This document shows positions 5,835-41,593 of a stretch of DNA of 64,000 bases, piece after piece (the first letter of the stretch is position 1; the number at the start of each line of letters is the position of its first letter). Position numbers and translations under genes: made by a program. The stretch is from an uncultured bacterium (lineage in GTDB: Bacteria; Gemmatimonadota; Gemmatimonadetes; Longimicrobiales; Gaopeijiaceae), in the NCBI GenBank assembly GCA_963935005.1, contig CAWWAX010000001.1, forward strand, positions 52,572 through 116,571, written 5' to 3'. The notes under the pieces were generated by a model. The model was not told the DNA's origin. It saw nothing but the letters and a program-made list of their open reading frames with translations, and did not search any database.

Positions 5835-5909
<75 letters not shown>

Positions 5910-5912
5910 AAG

Positions 5913-6299
<387 letters not shown>

Positions 6300-7686: not shown

Positions 7687-9372
7687 TTGAAGATCAAACA
7701 TCTGATTATACTTGCCATTACTATCCTGAACTCCTGTGTCGTTTCTGCTAGCCATGATCGAACGTCTCAAGTGGACAGCGTTTTCGAACGTTGGAACAAC
7801 TTCACCTCTCCTGGTTGTGCAGTCGGTATAATGAAGGACGGTCACGTTGTTCTCGAAAAGGCTTACGGAATGGCTGACCTGCAACATGAAATTCCGAATA
7901 CTATCGAAACAGTTTTTGAAAATGGTTCTGTTTCGAAGCAATTTACGGCAGCAGCAATCGTTCTTCTTGCCTTGGAAGGAAAAATCACTCTCGACGACGA
8001 TGTGCGGTACTACATTCCTGAAGTGCCCGATTATGGCACTACAATAACTTTACGTCACTTAATGACTCACACGAGCGGCCTCAGAGACTGGGGTTCAGTC
8101 GCTGCCATCTCTGGATGGCCAAGACATGAACGCAGCCATAATCACAGTGACGTTTTAAATATTATCAGTCGCCAGACTGCGCTTAATTTCCATCCTGGAA
8201 CTGAATATTCCTACAGTAACACTGGATATAACTTGCTAGCTATGGTGGTGACACGCGTGAGCGGAATCCCCTTTGCAGAATTCTCTATGGAGAACATCTT
8301 CGAACCACTTGGCTTGGCAAATACGCAGTGGCGGGATAACCCCAGGCGAATAGTAAAAGGTCGAAGCACTGCCTACCGAGCCTTGGAAAATGGAACATTC
8401 GAGATCCTACAACCCATAGAACATGTGCATGGAAACGGTGGCCTGCTCACCACGATAGGAGACCTGCTGACTTGGAACCAAGCCTTGGAAGACGGTACAA
8501 TCGGTGGGCAGAGGTTCATAGAAATGATGCACGAGCAGGGCCGTTTGACAGATGGTTCTGAGATCACCTACGCGGGCGGACTTCAAATCGATTCCTTCAA
8601 AGGTGTAAAACGCATAAGTCATACTGGTGCTACGGCAGGCTACAGAGCGTTCGTTTCCAGGTATCCAGAACACCATCTCTCACTGGCATCACTTTGCAAT
8701 TCCAGTGATGCCAATACCGGTTTGATCAGAGATCAACTCGCTGAAATTTTCATTGGTGAATTCCTGAAGGATCCCGAGCTTCAGCAGGCTATCACACTGA
8801 CACCAGAAATAATGGCTTCCTATGCTGGACTTTATTACGAACCCGTGACGGGACAAACAAAACAATTGGAACTAAGAAACGGCGATCTCTATGACGGAAA
8901 CAACAAACTCACTCCCACCTCACCTTCTATTTTTTTAAATCCTGCTACCACAGCTGATTACATTTTTGAAACCCAGCAGGGTAATGCCAAAGAATTTTCC
9001 CTAGATGCCTGGCAGTATACGAAAAAGAGTTATCAGCAAACGAGCTCGTGGGCTCCAGATATTGAAGAATTACAGACATTGACTGGCACCTATAGCAGTG
9101 CGGACTCTAACACTACTTATATCGTTAAAATGATAAATAATCAGTTGGTGATAGAACAGGAACCTGGACGGATACAGGTCCTTACGCCTCTGTACAAAGA
9201 CGCTTTTGAAGGAAATTTTGGAGTGCCTGAATTTGACATCCATTGGACTTCAGAACGTTTCTCGTCCAATGGAGTCATAAGGTTTGAACGTGACAGCAGA
9301 AACGTAGTCACAGAATTGTCTGGATCTTGGGGAAGAGTTTTTGACATGCGCTTCAAACGTCAAAGCAATTAA
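7687..9372 (+). CDS. Serine hydrolase, beta-lactamase/PBP (class C-like) family with C-terminal extra domain
   Basis: It has the SxxK motif GSVSKQF and the YxN motif YSYSNTGY, plus an N-terminal signal peptide. The start is TTG preceded by AGGGAG. Confidence 0.8.
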   Translation: MKIKHLIILAITILNSCVVSASHDRTSQVDSVFERWNNFTSPGCAVGIMKDGHVVLEKAYGMADLQHEIPNTIETVFENGSVSKQFTAAAIVLLALEGKITLDDDVRYYIPEVPDYGTTITLRHLMTHTSGLRDWGSVAAISGWPRHERSHNHSDVLNIISRQTALNFHPGTEYSYSNTGYNLLAMVVTRVSGIPFAEFSMENIFEPLGLANTQWRDNPRRIVKGRSTAYRALENGTFEILQPIEHVHGNGGLLTTIGDLLTWNQALEDGTIGGQRFIEMMHEQGRLTDGSEITYAGGLQIDSFKGVKRISHTGATAGYRAFVSRYPEHHLSLASLCNSSDANTGLIRDQLAEIFIGEFLKDPELQQAITLTPEIMASYAGLYYEPVTGQTKQLELRNGDLYDGNNKLTPTSPSIFLNPATTADYIFETQQGNAKEFSLDAWQYTKKSYQQTSSWAPDIEELQTLTGTYSSADSNTTYIVKMINNQLVIEQEPGRIQVLTPLYKDAFEGNFGVPEFDIHWTSERFSSNGVIRFERDSRNVVTELSGSWGRVFDMRFKRQSN

Positions 9373-38044: not shown

Positions 38045-38521
38045 CTAAGAACGGTTTTTTTCAGGATATACCGGCAAGGCACCTGAACGAGTCTTCCGTT
38101 TAAAGAATGGTTTTAGTACGTACCGATGTGCTAGTATCGCCCAAGTACAAAGGAGTCCCAGTCCTAAATGTGACCAAGAAAGAACCTCCAGTGAGAGTTC
38201 ATTAATGACTATCTGAATCAAATAACCAGTTAACACTAGAGGGAAAAAAGTAAAGGTCGCCCACACACCACTCTTTCTCCCTGTTGGGAGATTGGACTTC
38301 AAGCTTCTCCAAATGTGGTTAGTTGCAATCAGACCTACTGCAAAAAGCATTGCTGGTGCAAATATTATATGCACTTTCAGAGCCCACGGTTCCAAGGGAT
38401 GATTGATAATCGCCCAAGGATCATCCGTTGTCATAAACCTCTTCATATATATGTAAATGACACCGCTGACAGCGGTGACGATAGTGCTGATATACAAAAA
38501 CCAACGGTGAAATTGAGTCAA
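38045..38521 (-). CDS. Small His-rich 4-TM inner-membrane protein (possible b-haem electron carrier; PepSY_TM/DUF4405/cyt-b561-like)
   Basis: Four hydrophobic helices are present. His pairs bracket TM2 (H51, H69) and TM4 (H118, H132), and H5 lies in TM1. It is the last gene of the apbE operon. The start is TTG with a weak RBS. Confidence 0.6.
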   Translation of the reverse strand: MTQFHRWFLYISTIVTAVSGVIYIYMKRFMTTDDPWAIINHPLEPWALKVHIIFAPAMLFAVGLIATNHIWRSLKSNLPTGRKSGVWATFTFFPLVLTGYLIQIVINELSLEVLSWSHLGLGLLCTWAILAHRYVLKPFFKRKTRSGALPVYPEKNRS

Positions 38522-38532
38522 CGTTTAAGATT

Positions 38533-39081
38533 TTATAAAGGATCGATCACAGCATGCAAAGCCATGACCCTACGGACAGCTGCAGTAACAGCTCTCGCCG
38601 TTAAAGTTGCACCAGTTATGGTGGCGATATCGCCCTTTTGTGACAAGTCTCGATCTAGTTTTCGATTTTCAAATTGAGCCATCCATCGTCCAGGAGCACG
38701 GTAATTGGGAGGTTCCTGAAATCGCATTGTCTCAACACGTATGACACGATCTTCAGTATCGACCGCCACCATAATCACTTCCTGCAGTGTCCGAACCCTA
38801 TGAGCATCGAAATAGGCTATCCCAACTGGATTCCCATCCGTATGTGCTATGTAAGGTATGACTAGATTGTTGTCTATAGGAATATTTTCACCAGCCAATT
38901 TTCTCGCCTCTTCCTTCTGTTCGTCATTAAGGAAAAAGGTCTTTCTCTCAACTACTGACCCCGGGAATGCCAGCTGAACACCTTCGGTGATAGTTAAGGT
39001 TTGGGCAGATGAAAACTGGGTAGCAGTGAGAATACTCACCGCTACCCAGAAGAAAGCTCGTTGGAGAACTAGTACAGCCAT
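38533..39081 (-). CDS. Exported FMN-binding-domain protein (ApbE flavinylation substrate)
   Basis: It has a signal peptide (...ATQFSSAQ) and the FMN_bind-type motif GDIATITGATLTARAV, where [ST]GAT is the flavinylated-Thr context. Confidence 0.8.
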   Translation of the reverse strand: MAVLVLQRAFFWVAVSILTATQFSSAQTLTITEGVQLAFPGSVVERKTFFLNDEQKEEARKLAGENIPIDNNLVIPYIAHTDGNPVGIAYFDAHRVRTLQEVIMVAVDTEDRVIRVETMRFQEPPNYRAPGRWMAQFENRKLDRDLSQKGDIATITGATLTARAVTAAVRRVMALHAVIDPL

Positions 39082-40352
39082 CCTACAACGAAATTGATTT
39101 GGTTAATCCCCGAATTAGTACCAGTTTCATGCATCTGATAGTCACCCTTGAAGACCACTTGGGTTGCTGGCTTCCAAGCAAATCCAATCGAGGTGGCTGT
39201 CAGGTCTTTACTAGCACTGGCGCTGTATCCAGAAGCAACCGCCTTATGCGTATTAACCCTCTCGTATCGCACGTAAGGAATGAATGCTGACTCTGTATCC
39301 TGCTTGGTTCTTAGTAGGTCATAGCCCGCTTGAACAAACCAGCCACCCATTGCTTCACCGATTCCAGCTGAGCCCGTAAAACTATTAAGCTGGTTCAATT
39401 GGGCCACATCGCCCACGGAAGCATGTGCCCAAAGAGCTCTAAGATCAAATCCATTGACTTTATAATCCATATGGAGATCCCAAATAGTTACGCGTCCTCC
39501 CACCTCAGAACCATTCAATTCTGCTCCCTGTCCTGTATTTCCAGTGTACATAGAGGCTCCTAACAATAACCCTGGAGTACCAATATAATCCCAGCGAGCA
39601 GCGATGCCAAAGTTTTCAGCCTTTGCTTTCGCGCCTTTTTGGCGACCCCCACGAAGACCACTCGAGCTAAATTTAACTCCATTGAGTGAGTTCATCGTAT
39701 ATACACGCCACGAAGTTGTTTCTGTTTCTCCGAACAATCCGATCCCGTTCTCTCTCCAGGTAGTCGGTATGATCTTATTTTCAGTCAAAGGTCTTTCCGT
39801 ACCCAAAAATATCGGAGGTTCGTGAAGTTCGTTTGTTAGACCCAAAGGTGCCAGCAACATACCCGCACGCATACCCACATTGTCCGTAAGCATGTAGTCT
39901 ACGTAAGCAAACTCCAAGTAGATTTCTTTCGCATGTTCAACTTCGATTTCCGAGTTGAACAACAAACGATCATTGAACTTGTATCCAGTATAAAGAATAG
40001 CTCTTAATGCATCAAACTGATCGGTTTTTCCCGAGGCTGATCCATCTTGCTTCTTCCCTGCGTAGTTCTCGTAGAGAAACTCTCCATATCCTCCAATCGA
40101 TAAACCGCTCTCGATTTTATATACCCTAGAAGCCGCTGGTCCAAATCCTCTTTCGCCAGAATCCATGTCGACAACGACGTCTCCTAAATCCATTCTTTCT
40201 AGCTCTCGAGCGAGAGCTTCAACATTTCGTTCTAGCTCTGCAATACGAGCTGAGTCCGCTTGTTGTGCAGCTACTTCTGGGGTCGGAACTACCGACACCA
40301 GAAACATGCACAGCGCAGGAACGATCAATGATGTCCTACTATTTGTGGTCAC
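39069..40352 (-). CDS. Outer-membrane beta-barrel porin with N-terminal coiled-coil segment
   Basis: It has a signal peptide and a heptad-like ARIAELERNVEALARELERM. A long alternating-strand region follows, with many aromatic girdle residues, ending ...FVVGWLY. The start is GTG with the RBS AAGGAGAG. Confidence 0.75.
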   Translation of the reverse strand: MTTNSRTSLIVPALCMFLVSVVPTPEVAAQQADSARIAELERNVEALARELERMDLGDVVVDMDSGERGFGPAASRVYKIESGLSIGGYGEFLYENYAGKKQDGSASGKTDQFDALRAILYTGYKFNDRLLFNSEIEVEHAKEIYLEFAYVDYMLTDNVGMRAGMLLAPLGLTNELHEPPIFLGTERPLTENKIIPTTWRENGIGLFGETETTSWRVYTMNSLNGVKFSSSGLRGGRQKGAKAKAENFGIAARWDYIGTPGLLLGASMYTGNTGQGAELNGSEVGGRVTIWDLHMDYKVNGFDLRALWAHASVGDVAQLNQLNSFTGSAGIGEAMGGWFVQAGYDLLRTKQDTESAFIPYVRYERVNTHKAVASGYSASASKDLTATSIGFAWKPATQVVFKGDYQMHETGTNSGINQINFVVGWLY

Positions 40353-40353
40353 C

Positions 40354-41379
40354 CTATCTCTCCTTTAATGAGTGTTGTGGTACTGTGAAAAAGTTTTGAA
40401 AAGAAGTTGTCCACTTACTGGACAGTTGTCCGTGGTTATCACGAATAAATAGAGCGGCTATGTTTCCCTGTTTACTAGCCCACTCGAAGCCTTCATCTGG
40501 ACCCATTACCAATAATGCTGTGGCGAGAGCATCGGCTTCCATGGGATCATTAGAAATGACCGACACACTGCCCCAAGGATCAACTGGAAAGCCCGAATGC
40601 GGGTCGAGAATATGTCCGAATGATTCATTCTCGATCTCTATGAATCGTTCAGACAAACCGGAAGTAGCAATTGATTGATTTGTCAGCCTTACACTGAACA
40701 CCGATCCAGTTCGATCACTGGGATGGGCGACTTGAATAATTCGACCAGATCCTGCAGTCGGGTTTCTAGAATAGACCAAAACTTGCCCGCCAAAATTAAT
40801 TTCAGCATAACTGACAGATGTGCCCAGTAACGGAATAAGGCTAGCAAGTGCAGCTCCTTTACCGAATGCTCCGGTTTCTATCCAGGAAGTACTGAATTTT
40901 TTTGTAGCGGTATGATGCACAACATCTAGATCAAAAGCATCCAATTGTGCGTGGCGTGTTGCTGTCTCAAGTTCCCGGCTGTTCGGCACCCGGCCTTCGC
41001 CTCTCAGGTCCCATACCTTCATCAATGATCCCATGAAAGGACTAAATGAACCCTTCGTTTCTTTCGATATTTCTTCCGCCCTGACGAGCAATGTGAACAA
41101 TTCTCGAGACAGAGGTATCCTCTCGCCGACAGGAGATGTATTGAGCAAGCTTAACTCTGAATCCGACCGCCATGTACTGACGATACTTTCAACTCTTTCC
41201 AGTTCACGGATTGCTCTTTCAGATGCTTGTATAGCGAATTCTCGTGAATCCGCTTCAATGATTACACCAACAGATGTACCCATTACCCAAGCCTCTCTCT
41301 CGACTCGTACCGTCAGGTTTTCTTGTTGGCCTGCTATTGGATTTAGTAGGTATAGTAGGAAGGAAGCTAAGTAAAACAT
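40354..41379 (-). CDS. apbE: FAD:protein FMN transferase (ApbE family), Sec signal
   Basis: ApbE motifs GAFGKGAALASL, IATSGLSERF and DALATALLVMG are present. It has an N-terminal hydrophobic signal. Confidence 0.85.
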   Translation of the reverse strand: MFYLASFLLYLLNPIAGQQENLTVRVEREAWVMGTSVGVIIEADSREFAIQASERAIRELERVESIVSTWRSDSELSLLNTSPVGERIPLSRELFTLLVRAEEISKETKGSFSPFMGSLMKVWDLRGEGRVPNSRELETATRHAQLDAFDLDVVHHTATKKFSTSWIETGAFGKGAALASLIPLLGTSVSYAEINFGGQVLVYSRNPTAGSGRIIQVAHPSDRTGSVFSVRLTNQSIATSGLSERFIEIENESFGHILDPHSGFPVDPWGSVSVISNDPMEADALATALLVMGPDEGFEWASKQGNIAALFIRDNHGQLSSKWTTSFQNFFTVPQHSLKER

Positions 41380-41419
41380 TTCAATTGTTCTGAGCCACGA
41401 ACTCTGTTTTAAATGGGAT

Positions 41420-41434
41420 TGAGAATCATTCTCA
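41420..41434. promoter_or_regulatory. Fur-family-type 7-1-7 operator candidate
   Basis: This is the perfect palindrome TGAGAAT-C-ATTCTCA. It matches the 7-1-7 Fur box TGATAATnATTATCA at 13 of 15 positions and lies 41 nt upstream of the apbE (40354-41379) start. Confidence 0.6.
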
Positions 41435-41593
41435 TATAAGTTACAACAGAATTTACTAGAATCACTTGAGAGGTCAATAGGGGGTACTGATGTCCTAAGC
41501 CTTAGAATTTTCGGAAAAGGATTTTTGATAATTCGTCCGACAAACTCCTTTGCCTATCCTTAAATCATTTTAGCGACAGGGGTAAGATTACCC

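What the first reader, a model, noticed from the sequence alone, without database searches (positions are those of the whole stretch)
38045..41434. Fur-box-fronted apbE - porin - FMN-binding protein - His-rich 4-TM operon: candidate iron-regulated extracytosolic flavin reductase with its own outer-membrane channel
Seen in sequence: four minus-strand ORFs are packed with a 1-nt gap (TAGgGTG), a 13-nt overlap and an 11-nt gap. The first is an ApbE flavin transferase with a signal peptide. The second is a 427-aa porin-like beta-barrel with an N-terminal coiled-coil-like segment. The third is a 182-aa exported FMN-binding-domain protein carrying ITGATLT. The fourth is a 158-aa 4-TM protein whose His pairs bracket TM2 (H51/H69) and TM4 (H118/H132). 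A perfect 15-bp palindrome, TGAGAATCATTCTCA, lies 41 nt upstream of the apbE ATG; it matches the Fur-family 7-1-7 box TGATAATnATTATCA at 13 of 15 positions. Established knowledge: ApbE covalently attaches FMN to the Thr of [ST]GA[ST]-type motifs in exported FMN-binding domains (NqrC/RnfG paradigm). Small bis-His four-helix membrane proteins can pass electrons across the membrane. Fur boxes mark iron-repressed promoters. Inference: this is an iron-starvation-induced module that delivers electrons to a periplasmic flavoprotein and is linked to a dedicated outer-membrane channel, for example for reductive release or uptake of iron from ferric chelates. ApbE-linked extracytosolic reductases are known as a class. 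I cannot assign to any characterised system a porin embedded between the flavin transferase and its substrate together with a Fur-type operator.
Basis: partly seen in the sequence, partly recalled or inferred. Interest (0 to 1): 0.72.

Follow-up and report, generated by a model that had tools for sequence, protein, structure and literature searches.

The report
Iron-regulated porin–flavoprotein–cytochrome uptake operon
A four-gene operon, common in Gemmatimonadota and some other soil and marine bacteria but not annotated, pairs a dedicated outer-membrane pore with a flavin-carrying periplasmic protein and a small membrane protein that probably binds haem; its regulators and neighbouring genes indicate that it helps the cell take up iron.

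Summary
Four tightly packed minus-strand genes encode ApbE, a 16-stranded porin, an exported FMN-binding protein with a TGAT flavinylation site, and a four-helix membrane protein with His pairs on helices 2 and 4. A perfect 15-bp palindrome precedes them.

The module recurs in 164 non-redundant loci. The FMN protein follows the porin in 136 of 137 loci. A small His-rich four-helix protein follows in 126 of 127. The four membrane His are about 98-100% conserved in 272 homologues.

The palindrome is a conserved operator. Forty-eight copies with at most one mismatch occur in about 1 Mb, all directly upstream of this operon.

In other lineages, 28 of 50 loci carry a fur or dtxR gene just upstream. 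Thirteen loci have FeoB or FTR1 iron permease genes in the same gene string.

Iron-regulated iron acquisition is therefore well supported by comparative genomics. The proposed electron path is quinol, then two haems, then FMN, then ferric iron entering through an acidic-ladder porin. That path is inferred, not shown.

The porin and the four-helix protein match no Pfam or NCBIfam family above threshold, and I found no published description. I rate it a new variant of the known flavinylation-linked iron-assimilation systems. Interest is about 0.65.

The parts
41420..41434 (.). Fur-family-type 7-1-7 operator, TGAGAATCATTCTCA. The extended consensus across loci is rrT-TGAGAAY-S-RTTCTCA-Ayy.
   Evidence: It is the only exact match in the window. 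All 48 copies with at most 1 mismatch in about 1 Mb lie upstream of orthologous operons. In L044 the box lies between a fur gene and the barrel gene. In L112 it precedes a fur gene.
41450..41477 (-). Weak sigma-70-like promoter candidate, TTGACC-16-TAAATT. It would place the operator at about +9 to +23.
   Evidence: This is only a consensus scan, and the number of hits in the region is no greater than in shuffles. A similar layout, TTGACA-N17-GAATAC followed by the box, is conserved in the FTR1/fur lineage.
40354..41379 (-). apbE, an exported FAD:protein FMN transferase (341 aa).
   Evidence: PF02424, 187 bits, E 6e-55. The N-terminus is hydrophobic with no lipobox Cys. It lies upstream of the barrel gene in 98 of 119 loci and is fused to the 4-TM protein in other lineages.
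39069..40352 (-). Outer-membrane 16-stranded porin of a family with no Pfam or NCBIfam model (427 aa). It has a signal peptide, an N-terminal coiled-coil helix (29-65), and invariant motifs NSEIEVEH (133-140), NELHEPP (174-180), TTWRENG (197-203) and LRGGRQKG (233-240).
   Evidence: No Pfam or NCBIfam hit. More than 5,700 homologues. AlphaFold2 model pLDDT 75.7. Foldseek matches OmpT, OmpF and OprP at E 1e-13 to 1e-11; OprP aligns over 426 columns with TM-score 0.57. The motifs are invariant across lineages that share 41-50% identity.
38533..39081 (-). Exported FMN-binding-domain protein (182 aa), the predicted ApbE substrate. The flavinylation motif is TGAT and the target residue is Thr159.
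   Evidence: PF04205, 34.1 bits, with weak RnfG similarity. The [ST]GA[ST]LT motif is present in 74 of 78 orthologous loci. The gene follows the barrel gene in 136 of 137 loci.
38045..38521 (-). Four-helix inner-membrane protein (158 aa) of a family with no Pfam or NCBIfam model. It is a putative di-haem cytochrome b-like electron conduit. The proposed ligand pairs are H51/H118 on the periplasmic side and H69/H132 on the cytoplasmic side. H41 lies in the periplasmic NHPLEPW loop.
   Evidence: No family hit above threshold. 1,068 representatives at E<=1e-3. AlphaFold2 model pLDDT 82.5 with four helices. The best Foldseek match is cytochrome b of complex III, E 0.18, TM-score 0.60, which is not significant. 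His conservation is 98-100%. There are weak DUF4405 hits.
39016..39049 (-). 15-bp mRNA hairpin just after the barrel stop codon, inside the first codons of the FMN-protein gene.
   Evidence: Found. MFE z-score -5.2. It is kept in L007, where a T-to-C change turns a G-U pair into G-C. Hairpins of at least 12 bp occur at this position in 30 of 160 loci, against 2 of 167 in a control region.

Best explanation
This is a Fur-family-repressed operon for iron acquisition.

Proposed mechanism:
1. ApbE, in the periplasm, covalently attaches FMN to Thr159 of the exported FMN-binding protein.
2. The 158-aa four-helix inner-membrane protein binds two b-type haems through H51/H118 and H69/H132. It carries electrons from the quinol pool across the membrane to that flavoprotein.
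3. The dedicated trimeric porin has a lumen-facing Asn-Glu-Glu-Glu-His ladder and an invariant acidic, His-containing constriction loop. It admits iron (ionic or weakly chelated) across the outer membrane.
4. The reduced flavoprotein converts Fe(III) to Fe(II), or keeps it as Fe(II), at or near the periplasmic mouth of the pore.
5. Inner-membrane transporters such as FeoB or FTR1, encoded elsewhere in this genome, then import the iron.

Status of each part:
- Shown by sequence and family analysis: gene identities, synteny, motif and His conservation, conservation of the operator, and linkage to iron regulators and transporters.
- Inferred: haem binding, the electron donor, the direction of electron flow, the porin's substrate and iron-responsive repression.
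For: Components:
- ApbE and FMN_bind score above the Pfam thresholds.
- The flavinylation motif is conserved in 74 of 78 loci.
- The barrel has a 16-strand porin fold.
- The 4-TM protein is a four-helix bundle with near-invariant His on helices 2 and 4. The spacing on helix 4 is 14 residues, as in cytochrome b.
- Its best structural neighbour is cytochrome b. Hits to DUF4405, a family shown to bind haem b (PMC11334425), are weak.

Module:
- The order barrel, FMN protein, 4-TM protein holds in about 99% of 164 loci.
- 4-TM/ApbE fusions exist, and a fifth hydrophobic helix in them gives a consistent topology.

Regulation:
- The operator is conserved and specific to this operon.
- A fur or dtxR gene lies directly upstream in 28 of 50 informative loci.
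- The Fur paralogues score best against ferric-uptake Fur models.
- The DtxR paralogues keep the Cys-Glu-His primary-site ligands of DtxR.

Iron transport links:
- FTR1 lies divergent from fur in 8 loci and directly follows the 4-TM gene in L034.
- FeoB lies directly upstream on the same strand in 4 loci.

Precedent: flavinylated extracytosolic iron-reductase systems are an established bioinformatic class (PMC8238504).
Against: - There is no experimental evidence for any step.
- The window contains no iron transporter gene, no fur gene and no second operator.
- The regulator cannot be assigned a metal from the box alone, because Fur, Zur, Mur and PerR boxes are similar. The adjacent DtxR-like proteins score slightly better against MntR models than against DtxR models, all below cut-off.
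- The structural match of the 4-TM protein to cytochromes is not statistically significant, and no family model reaches threshold.
- The His spacing on helix 2 is 18 residues rather than 14.
- Pore-lining positions are inferred from strand periodicity, not measured from coordinates.
- Frequent 4-TM/ApbE fusions could mean that the 4-TM protein serves ApbE, for example by supplying flavin or anchoring it, rather than transferring electrons.
Confidence: 0.6

Rival explanations
1. The architecture is the same, but the metal is manganese or another divalent cation. The operator would then bind a Mur-like or MntR-like sensor. The porin would be a Mn(II) channel analogous to MnoP of Bradyrhizobium, and the flavoprotein would reduce Mn(III/IV).
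For: The short DtxR-family neighbours score higher against MntR models (80 and 73 bits) than against DtxR models (50 and 54 bits), all below cut-off. Fur-family boxes do not reveal metal specificity. The acidic ladder would suit any divalent cation.
Against: FeoB and FTR1, both iron transporters, are the linked permeases in 13 loci. tblastn with FTR1, FeoB, Fur and DtxR queries found only these, and no Mn or Zn transporter was noticed in the Pfam-annotated loci. The Fur paralogues score best against Fur models. By my reading they keep the Fe-site ligand pattern of E. coli and P. aeruginosa Fur (sequences; the ligand positions are from memory). The DtxR paralogues have Cys at the position that is Glu in MntR.
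Confidence: 0.1
2. The 4-TM protein is not an electron carrier. It would be an accessory of ApbE, for example exporting FAD to the periplasm or anchoring and activating ApbE. The flavoprotein would then receive electrons from another source.
For: At least 8 of the top 150 family representatives are N-terminal fusions of the 4-TM domain to ApbE. How FAD reaches periplasmic ApbE in Gram-negative bacteria is generally unclear (my own knowledge).
Against: The invariant residues are four membrane-embedded His in two pairs on alternate helices, which is the classical bis-His di-haem pattern. In acidobacterial versions an unrelated 4-TM protein that is also His-rich, with a 14-residue His spacing, takes its place. 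Fusions of operon neighbours are common and do not imply a shared catalytic step. No other transmembrane electron route is encoded in the module.
Confidence: 0.1
3. The module is a dissimilatory or energy-linked conduit. It would be a porin-flavoprotein analogue of MtrAB or Cyc2, used either for extracellular Fe(III)/Mn(IV) respiration or for Fe(II) oxidation feeding electrons into the quinone pool.
For: A porin tightly coupled to a redox protein recalls porin-cytochrome conduits. The direction of electron flow through a di-haem bundle cannot be read from sequence.
Against: A 16-stranded porin cannot house a 150-aa flavodomain, and one FMN cannot span the outer membrane (fold; the rest is inference). 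Linkage to Fur or DtxR repressors and to the assimilatory transporters FeoB and FTR1 points to acquisition. No multihaem cytochromes and no CXXCH motif are present; the barrel has one Cys, in its signal peptide.
Confidence: 0.07
4. The module is a peroxide or redox-stress defence under a PerR-like Fur paralogue. A periplasmic flavoprotein would detoxify oxidants or quinones that enter through the porin.
For: One adjacent Fur paralogue type (L112) scores marginally best against a PerR model. Cytochrome b561-type proteins can act in periplasmic superoxide chemistry (my own knowledge).
Against: The other three paralogue types tested score best as Fur. Iron transporters are the recurrent neighbours. 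No peroxidase, catalase or Msr genes recur in the neighbourhoods.
Confidence: 0.05

Closest known systems
Flavinylation-associated extracytosolic iron-assimilation systems: PepSY-like/DUF2271/DUF4198 clusters, MsrQ-like clusters with VIT1, and P19-FTR1 clusters with an FMN_bind gene (Meheust et al. 2021, PMC8238504)
   Same: An apbE gene lies next to a secreted ApbE substrate and a His-rich transmembrane protein proposed to carry electrons. Fur regulation and linkage to iron permeases, including FTR1, are also shared.
   Different: The transmembrane component here is a 158-aa four-helix protein with no PepSY, MsrQ, NapH, DsbD or NQR/RNF match. An outer-membrane porin is an obligatory, highly conserved member of the operon. 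Neither paper mentions a porin. DUF2271 and DUF4198 do not match the four proteins, and no P19 hit appears in the loci annotated with Pfam.
DUF4405 and FezC transmembrane cytochromes (Huang et al. 2024, PMC11334425)
   Same: These are small membrane proteins whose most conserved residues are four central His. They are found in apbE clusters, and haem b binding was shown experimentally for DUF4405 and FezC. The present family gives faint DUF4405 hits: E 0.92 for the window protein and E 0.007 for the fusion P0353.
   Different: DUF4405 is described there as a six-helix protein, whereas this one has four helices. The hits are far below the Pfam gathering score. The reported DUF4405-apbE clusters are in Proteobacteria and Firmicutes and carry Flavodoxin_4 substrates, not an FMN_bind protein plus a porin.
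Cytochrome b N-terminal four-helix bundle (bc1/b6f), Ni/Fe-hydrogenase cytochrome b and cytochrome b561 (CybB)
   Same: All are four-helix bundles. His pairs lie on helices 2 and 4, as on helices B and D of cytochrome b. The 14-residue spacing on helix 4 matches. The best Foldseek hit is cytochrome b, 7tgh chain 3C, TM-score 0.60.
   Different: There is no significant sequence or structural E-value. The spacing on helix 2 is 18 residues. An extra invariant His sits in a periplasmic NHPLEPW loop.
Substrate-specific trimeric porins OprP/OprO (phosphate; arginine ladder) and general porins OmpF/OmpC/OmpT
   Same: The fold is a 16-stranded barrel with a long loop 3 between strands 5 and 6. OprP aligns over the full length (426 columns, TM-score 0.57). 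A ladder of identical charged residues on one strand is a shared concept.
   Different: Sequence identity is 10-15%, and there is no hit to any Pfam porin family. The ladder is acidic (N133, E135, E137, E139, H140), which implies cations rather than anions. There is an N-terminal coiled-coil stalk. The gene is translationally coupled to a flavoprotein gene.
DUF3570, an ApbE-flavinylated protein of about 420 aa (PMC8238504)
   Same: The size is similar and the gene is adjacent to apbE.
   Different: There is no DUF3570 Pfam hit and no conserved [ST]GA[ST] motif; it occurs in 1 of 26 sequences and is not conserved. Here the flavinylated partner is a separate FMN_bind protein.
Listeria flavin-based extracellular electron transfer (Ndh2, DMK, EetA/EetB, FmnB, PplA)
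   Same: An ApbE-like enzyme flavinylates an extracytosolic FMN-binding protein. That protein receives quinol-derived electrons and can reduce ferric iron (background in PMC8238504 and PMC9973259).
   Different: That system is Gram-positive and has no outer membrane or porin. Its membrane components differ, and its role is respiratory rather than Fur-regulated iron assimilation.

Membership tests
ApbE (PF02424) FAD:protein FMN transferase | Full-length match to the ApbE profile above the curated threshold. | tested here: met
   187 bits against a cut-off of 25.6, covering profile positions 1-266 of 266. The NCBIfam ApbE equivalog scores 94 bits, below its cut-off of 498, so this is a divergent member.
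ApbE (PF02424) FAD:protein FMN transferase | Extracytosolic location (signal peptide or lipoprotein signal). | tested here: inconclusive
   The N-terminus MFYLASFLLYLLNPIAGQQ is hydrophobic and has no Cys. No signal-peptide predictor was available. In fusion homologues a hydrophobic helix precedes the ApbE domain.
FMN_bind (PF04205) ApbE substrates (NqrC/RnfG paradigm) | FMN_bind domain above the gathering score. | tested here: met
   34.1 bits against 22. RnfG models give only weak hits, far below their cut-offs, so this protein is not an RnfG or NqrC orthologue.
FMN_bind (PF04205) ApbE substrates (NqrC/RnfG paradigm) | Conserved [S/T]GA[S/T] flavinylation motif. | tested here: met
   TGAT at residues 156-159. 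The motif is present in 74 of 78 orthologous loci.
FMN_bind (PF04205) ApbE substrates (NqrC/RnfG paradigm) | Covalent FMN actually attached. | not testable with these tools
   This needs co-expression with ApbE followed by UV-fluorescent SDS-PAGE or mass spectrometry.
Trimeric 16-stranded porins (OmpF/OprP class) | 16-strand barrel fold with an inward-folded loop 3. | tested here: met
   The AlphaFold2 model has 16 strands and a 32-residue loop between strands 5 and 6. There are 295 PDB matches at E<=1e-3, all of the listed top 50 being outer-membrane beta-barrel porins or channels, mostly of the OmpF/OmpC/OprP class.
Trimeric 16-stranded porins (OmpF/OprP class) | Sequence membership of a described porin family (Porin_1, Porin_4, Porin_O_P and others). 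| tested here: not met
   There is no Pfam or NCBIfam hit for the window protein. Among 18 homologues the only hits are one weak match each to Phenol_MetA_deg and DUF2490. A profile search against PDB sequences found nothing.
DUF3570 flavinylated proteins | DUF3570 profile match and two conserved [S/T]GA[S/T] motifs. | tested here: not met
   No DUF3570 hit. The motif is absent from 25 of 26 sequences.
DUF4405 / flavinylation-associated transmembrane cytochromes | Profile match to DUF4405 (PF14358), PepSY_TM or Ferric_reduct (MsrQ). | tested here: inconclusive
   The only DUF4405 hits are below threshold: E 0.92 for the window protein and E 0.0073 (17.2 bits against a cut-off of 26.7) for the fusion P0353. 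There are no PepSY or MsrQ hits.
DUF4405 / flavinylation-associated transmembrane cytochromes | Four highly conserved membrane-embedded His arranged as two bis-His sites. | tested here: met
   H51, H69, H118 and H132 are 98-100% conserved in 272 sequences. They lie on helices 2 and 4 of a confident four-helix model. The His-His geometry could not be measured because model coordinates are not exposed.
DUF4405 / flavinylation-associated transmembrane cytochromes | Binds haem b. | not testable with these tools
   This needs expression of the protein and a pyridine haemochrome assay or spectroscopy.
Fur-family-regulated (iron-repressed) operon | 7-1-7 inverted repeat related to TGATAATnATTATCA in the promoter region. 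| tested here: met
   The site matches at 13 of 15 positions. It lies 40 nt upstream of the ATG and downstream of a weak promoter-like site.
Fur-family-regulated (iron-repressed) operon | The site is conserved at orthologous promoters beyond the background level. | tested here: met
   All 48 matches with at most 1 mismatch in 984 kb are at this promoter. Weaker Fur-like boxes occur at the same place in most of the remaining loci, including acidobacterial ones.
Fur-family-regulated (iron-repressed) operon | Genetic association with a Fur-family regulator and with iron-transport genes. | tested here: met
   A fur gene lies directly upstream in 21 of 50 informative metagenome loci and a dtxR gene in 7 of 50. 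A fur gene is also upstream in Gemmatimonadota locus L044. FTR1 is linked in 9 loci and FeoB in 4.
Fur-family-regulated (iron-repressed) operon | The same box occurs at other iron-regulated promoters of the same genome, and expression responds to iron. | not testable with these tools
   Only 64 kb of this genome are available, and they hold no other site scoring above 11.4 bits against 27.2 for the operator. Expression data are needed.

The most novel reading that the evidence does not exclude
The porin and the flavoprotein together would form a TonB-independent reductive iron gate at the outer membrane.
- Fe(III) is captured on the invariant Asn-Glu-Glu-Glu-His ladder and the NELHEP loop inside the pore.
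- The covalently flavinylated protein docks at the periplasmic mouth, possibly guided by the porin's coiled-coil stalk, and reduces the bound iron.
- Fe(II) is released into the periplasm for FeoB or FTR1.
- The flavin is recharged across the inner membrane by a previously unrecognised minimal four-helix di-haem cytochrome.

This would be the first outer-membrane channel whose transport is driven by redox chemistry rather than by TonB or diffusion. It would explain how siderophore-independent iron crosses the outer membrane in Gemmatimonadota, at least some Acidobacteriota, and further unassigned lineages.
Probability: 0.25. Interest if true: 0.85.

Novelty: new variant of a known kind. Interest (0 to 1): 0.65.

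Why it matters
How iron that is not bound to siderophores crosses the outer membrane to reach FeoB, FTR1 or EfeU-type transporters is usually put down to diffusion through general porins.

This module is present in at least 557 species-level genomes, mostly Gemmatimonadota. Metagenomes contain many more copies from unassigned lineages. It suggests a dedicated, iron-regulated route: a specific porin coupled to a periplasmic flavin reductase, powered by a new minimal transmembrane cytochrome.

It defines two large protein families that no Pfam or NCBIfam model covers:
- the porin, with more than 5,700 homologues;
- the four-helix His protein, with about 1,000 representatives at 50% clustering.

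It gives Gemmatimonadota a candidate Fur-type operator consensus. It also extends the catalogue of ApbE-dependent extracytosolic redox systems to one that includes an outer-membrane component. All parts are small and could be tested by heterologous expression.

Tried and rejected
1. Assigning the barrel to a known porin family. Pfam and NCBIfam gave nothing, and so did a PDB sequence-profile search. Only the fold matches.
2. DUF3570-like flavinylated barrel. Rejected: no profile hit and no conserved motif.
3. Assigning the 4-TM protein by sequence. There is no Pfam, NCBIfam or PDB hit. Foldseek gives only non-significant cytochrome-like neighbours. His-His distances could not be measured because model coordinates are not exposed.
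4. Homology between the Gemmatimonadota 4-TM protein and the acidobacterial substitute. hhalign probability is 0.7%, so they are unrelated or beyond detection.
5. Defining the regulon of the operator. There is no second site in the window or in about 1 Mb of flanking DNA from related genomes. A collection-wide DNA pattern scan was judged useless, because thousands of chance hits are expected for 12-15 specified bases.
6. Conserved additional genes in Gemmatimonadota flanks. None was found beyond the four. A histidine kinase in 17 loci and TyrS in 9 loci look like lineage synteny.
7. Window neighbours are unrelated: an MFS transporter, an M28 peptidase, a short-chain dehydrogenase and a penicillin amidase.
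8. Taxonomic placement of the metagenome loci via barrel identity. They are only 49-59% identical to any named genome, so they remain unassigned.
9. The palindrome as a terminator hairpin. Rejected: 7-bp A/T-rich arms around a 1-nt centre cannot form a stable stem-loop.
10. Literature search for a prior description of an apbE, porin and FMN_bind cluster. None was found.

Full report
**Observation**

The four minus-strand ORFs are at the stated coordinates:
- apbE, 40354-41379
- barrel, 39069-40352
- FMN protein, 38533-39081
- 4-TM protein, 38045-38521

The junctions are a 1-nt gap, a 13-nt overlap and an 11-nt gap. Pfam confirms ApbE (187 bits) and FMN_bind (34.1 bits against a cut-off of 22). 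Neither Pfam nor NCBIfam recognises the barrel or the 4-TM protein. The palindrome TGAGAATCATTCTCA sits at 41420-41434, 40 nt before the apbE ATG, and is the only exact copy in the window. The predicted flavinylation site is Thr159 in TGAT. The His residues of the 4-TM protein are at positions 5, 41, 51, 69, 118 and 132.

**Source organism**

The barrel is 96% identical to that of a Longimicrobiales MAG (ANT-84) and 89% identical to a second one. The window is therefore from a low-GC marine member of Gemmatimonadota, with 45.9% GC.

**The module is real and widespread**

A scan of one genome per species found at least 557 genomes encoding a barrel relative. The best 80 are almost all Gemmatimonadota, with a few Acidobacteriota. 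A metagenome scan added 80 more divergent loci, and look-ups of fusion proteins added six.

Across 164 non-redundant loci:
- The FMN-protein gene directly follows the barrel gene in 136 of 137 loci where this can be seen.
- A small His-rich four-helix membrane protein follows in 126 of 127. In 112 it belongs to the window's family, and in 14 it is an unrelated substitute. The single exception is masked by Ns.
- apbE is immediately upstream in 98 of 119, downstream or fused in 10, and out of view in 11.

Flanking genes differ between genomes, and the window's neighbours are unrelated. The invariant core is therefore porin, flavoprotein and 4-TM protein, with apbE usually attached.

**The parts**

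Barrel:
- It is the most conserved member: 47-64% identity where ApbE shows about 40%.
- The AlphaFold2 model (pLDDT 75.7) has a signal peptide, a helix of about 37 residues and 16 strands.
- Foldseek finds only trimeric porins. OprP and OprO give full-length alignments.
- Between strands 5 and 6 lies a 32-residue loop, the position of the constriction loop L3 in classical porins.
- NELHEPP, TTWRENG, NSEIEVEH on strand 3 and LRGGRQKG are invariant even between lineages that share 41-50% identity.
- By strand periodicity, N133, E135, E137 and E139 face one side, which I take to be the lumen. This gives an acidic ladder capped by H140, the converse of the arginine ladder of OprP, and suggests cation specificity. 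This is an inference.
- The barrel has no conserved [ST]GA[ST] motif, so it is not a DUF3570-type flavinylation substrate.

FMN protein: it keeps the [ST]GA[ST]LT motif in 74 of 78 loci.

4-TM protein:
- The model is a confident four-helix bundle (pLDDT 82.5).
- Charge distribution puts both termini and the 70-84 loop in the cytoplasm (read from the sequence).
- H51 and H118 then lie towards the periplasm and H69 and H132 towards the cytoplasm, on helices 2 and 4. This is the arrangement of helices B and D of cytochrome b.
- These four His are conserved in 98-100% of 272 family members, and H41 in the periplasmic NHPLEPW loop in 98%.
- An exhaustive profile search finds 1,068 representatives at E<=1e-3.
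- The best structural neighbour is cytochrome b of complex III (TM-score 0.60), followed by hydrogenase cytochrome b and haem A synthase. None is significant.
- Hits to DUF4405, a family shown experimentally to bind haem b in apbE clusters (PMC11334425), are faint.
- At least eight distant members are fused N-terminally to ApbE through an extra hydrophobic helix, which fits the predicted topology.
- In three genome loci (two labelled Acidobacteriota: Vicinamibacteria and Marinacidobacterales) and 14 metagenome loci, the position is taken by a different 4-TM protein. It has THMHL...LTHL (His residues 14 apart) and RFVHPG motifs, and no detectable homology to the window's family.
- Replacement by a non-homologous protein that is again His-rich argues for a required inner-membrane redox partner.

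**The palindrome is an operator**

- Upstream of apbE in 62 orthologous loci, the best match to the palindrome has at most 3 mismatches in 56.
- Over 984 kb of loci plus window, all 48 matches to TGAGAAnnnTTCTCA with at most 1 mismatch lie directly upstream of the operon.
- The symmetrised consensus extends to rrT-TGAGAAY-S-RTTCTCA-Ayy.
- Most remaining loci carry weaker Fur-like boxes or overlapping hexamer arrays at the same place. The acidobacterial versions have TGAAAnnCATTATCA.
- In the window, a weak promoter-like site (TTGACC-16-TAAATT, 41477-41450) would put the operator just downstream of the transcription start. A similar layout is conserved in another lineage.

**Which regulator and which metal**

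The box alone cannot distinguish Fur, Zur, Mur and PerR. Gene neighbourhoods help.

Regulators:
- Among 50 metagenome loci with enough upstream sequence, 21 have a Fur-family gene and 7 a DtxR-family gene within 500 nt of the operon. All but one are on the same strand.
- PF01475 and PF01325/PF02742 hits confirm the family assignments.
- Three of four Fur paralogue types score best against ferric-uptake Fur models, ahead of PerR and Zur. All are below equivalog cut-offs, as expected for distant phyla.
- By eye, the commonest type keeps the His/Glu/Asp ligands of the Fur iron sites (sequences; ligand positions recalled from the P. aeruginosa and E. coli Fur structures).
- The DtxR-like neighbours keep Cys-x-x-Glu-His, where MntR has Glu-x-x-Glu-His. 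Profile scores nevertheless slightly favour MntR for the short forms. The long forms carry a FeoA domain and score best as DtxR.
- In the Gemmatimonadota chromosome CP070792.1 (L044), a fur gene is followed by the exact box TGAGAACGATTCTCA and then the barrel gene. In L112 the same type of box precedes a fur gene that leads the operon.

Transporters:
- Eight loci have an FTR1 iron permease (90 bits, two REGxE motifs) divergent from fur-apbE-barrel-FMN-4TM. Their shared intergenic region is highly conserved and contains TGAGACTGAGTCGCA.
- Gemmatimonadota locus L034 has a lipoprotein-FTR1 fusion directly after the 4-TM gene.
- Four loci read fur-feoB-(small zinc-ribbon ORF-dtxR)-apbE-barrel-FMN-4TM on one strand.
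- Two unrelated inner-membrane iron importers and two unrelated families of iron-type metalloregulators have therefore been recruited next to the module in different lineages.

This is the strongest evidence that the module serves iron acquisition.

**Mechanism**

Shown:
- component identities;
- conserved flavinylation site;
- conserved bis-His pattern;
- porin fold;
- conserved operator;
- linkage to iron genes.

Inferred:
1. ApbE flavinylates Thr159 (NqrC/RnfG paradigm).
2. The 4-TM protein binds two b haems and moves quinol-derived electrons outward. It has no cytoplasmic NAD(P)H domain.
3. The flavoprotein reduces Fe(III).
4. The porin is the entry route, and its acidic, His-containing lumen binds iron.
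5. FeoB, FTR1 or similar transporters complete import.

The near-obligatory pairing of porin and flavoprotein, and the exceptional conservation of the pore interior, suggest that the two act together at the outer membrane. That reading is the novel case.

**Rivals**

I keep four rival explanations: manganese as the metal, an ApbE-accessory role for the 4-TM protein, a dissimilatory conduit, and a PerR-controlled stress function. The evidence for and against each is listed in the rival section.

**Comparison with what is known**

Meheust et al. (PMC8238504) catalogued ApbE-linked extracytosolic systems. They include Fur-regulated PepSY-like clusters, MsrQ-VIT1 clusters and P19-FTR1 clusters with FMN_bind proteins. 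Huang et al. (PMC11334425) added the DUF4405 and FezC cytochromes.

The present operon works like these. It fails membership of each defined subclass: there are no PepSY, MsrQ, NapH, DsbD, NQR/RNF or DUF2271 matches among its four proteins, and no P19 hit in the annotated loci. It also adds an outer-membrane porin that neither paper mentions. Literature searches found no description of it.

I therefore class it as a new variant of a known kind, built from two protein families that Pfam and NCBIfam do not cover.

**Limits**

- There are no expression or biochemical data.
- No genome-wide regulon could be derived.
- Model coordinates could not be inspected, so pore-lining positions and His-His distances are inferred from sequence periodicity.
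- The metagenome loci have no taxonomy. Their barrels are only 49-59% identical to any named genome.

Noticed in passing
window 39016-39049 (minus strand): A 15-bp hairpin followed by a T-run lies just after the porin stop codon, inside the signal-peptide codons of the FMN-protein gene. Its MFE z-score is -5.2. It is kept in L007, where a change converts a G-U pair to G-C. Hairpins of at least 12 bp occur at the same position in 30 of 160 loci, against 2 of 167 in a control region. It may set the porin-to-flavoprotein ratio. GC-rich signal-peptide codons could be a confounder.
   Followed up: partly
L052 7802-8359; L080 7766-8341; L084 about 7880-8370; 14 metagenome loci: In acidobacterial-type versions, the 4-TM gene is replaced by an unrelated 4-TM protein of about 160-190 aa. 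It has conserved THMHL...LTHL and RFVHPG motifs and no Pfam hit. This looks like non-homologous replacement of the inner-membrane partner.
   Followed up: partly
L086-L090 (for example L087 8001-9449): Natural fusions of the 4-TM domain to ApbE through a fifth hydrophobic helix. In these lineages the gene order is barrel, FMN protein, (4TM-ApbE).
   Followed up: yes
L091 2262-3599: One 445-aa protein joins the 4-TM domain to a Phenol_MetA_deg-like outer-membrane barrel domain, downstream of the usual barrel and FMN-protein genes. It could be a gene-call fusion or a second barrel partner. I did not resolve this.
   Followed up: no
L087 5511-6002; L090 200-787; L120; L121; L145: Short DtxR-family repressors next to the operon lack the SH3/FeoA domain. 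They end instead in Cys-rich tails (for example CEGCARLGVC and CPRSEDCGLCHAEC). They keep the primary-site Cys-Glu-His but not the ancillary-site His. This may be a distinct subfamily of metal sensors.
   Followed up: partly
window 5835-6296 (minus strand): Bacterial class A RNase P RNA (293 bits), immediately followed by a tRNA gene.
   Followed up: no
whole window: GC content is 45.9%, low for Gemmatimonadota; related loci are mostly 57-73% GC. There is a marked excess of C over G on the plus strand (C 0.249, G 0.209). This fits a low-GC marine Longimicrobiales lineage with the plus strand as the lagging strand.
   Followed up: no
L004 2150-6803: In one Gemmatimonadota genome, the operon is preceded by an MMPL transporter, a TP_0789-like protein and a second barrel with weak Porin_4 similarity. 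This is a separate envelope gene cluster of unknown relation.
   Followed up: no
L040, L049-L053, L057-L069 upstream regions: A sensor histidine kinase of about 730 aa recurs on the opposite strand upstream of the operon in 17 Gemmatimonadales loci. It is probably lineage synteny rather than part of the module.
   Followed up: no
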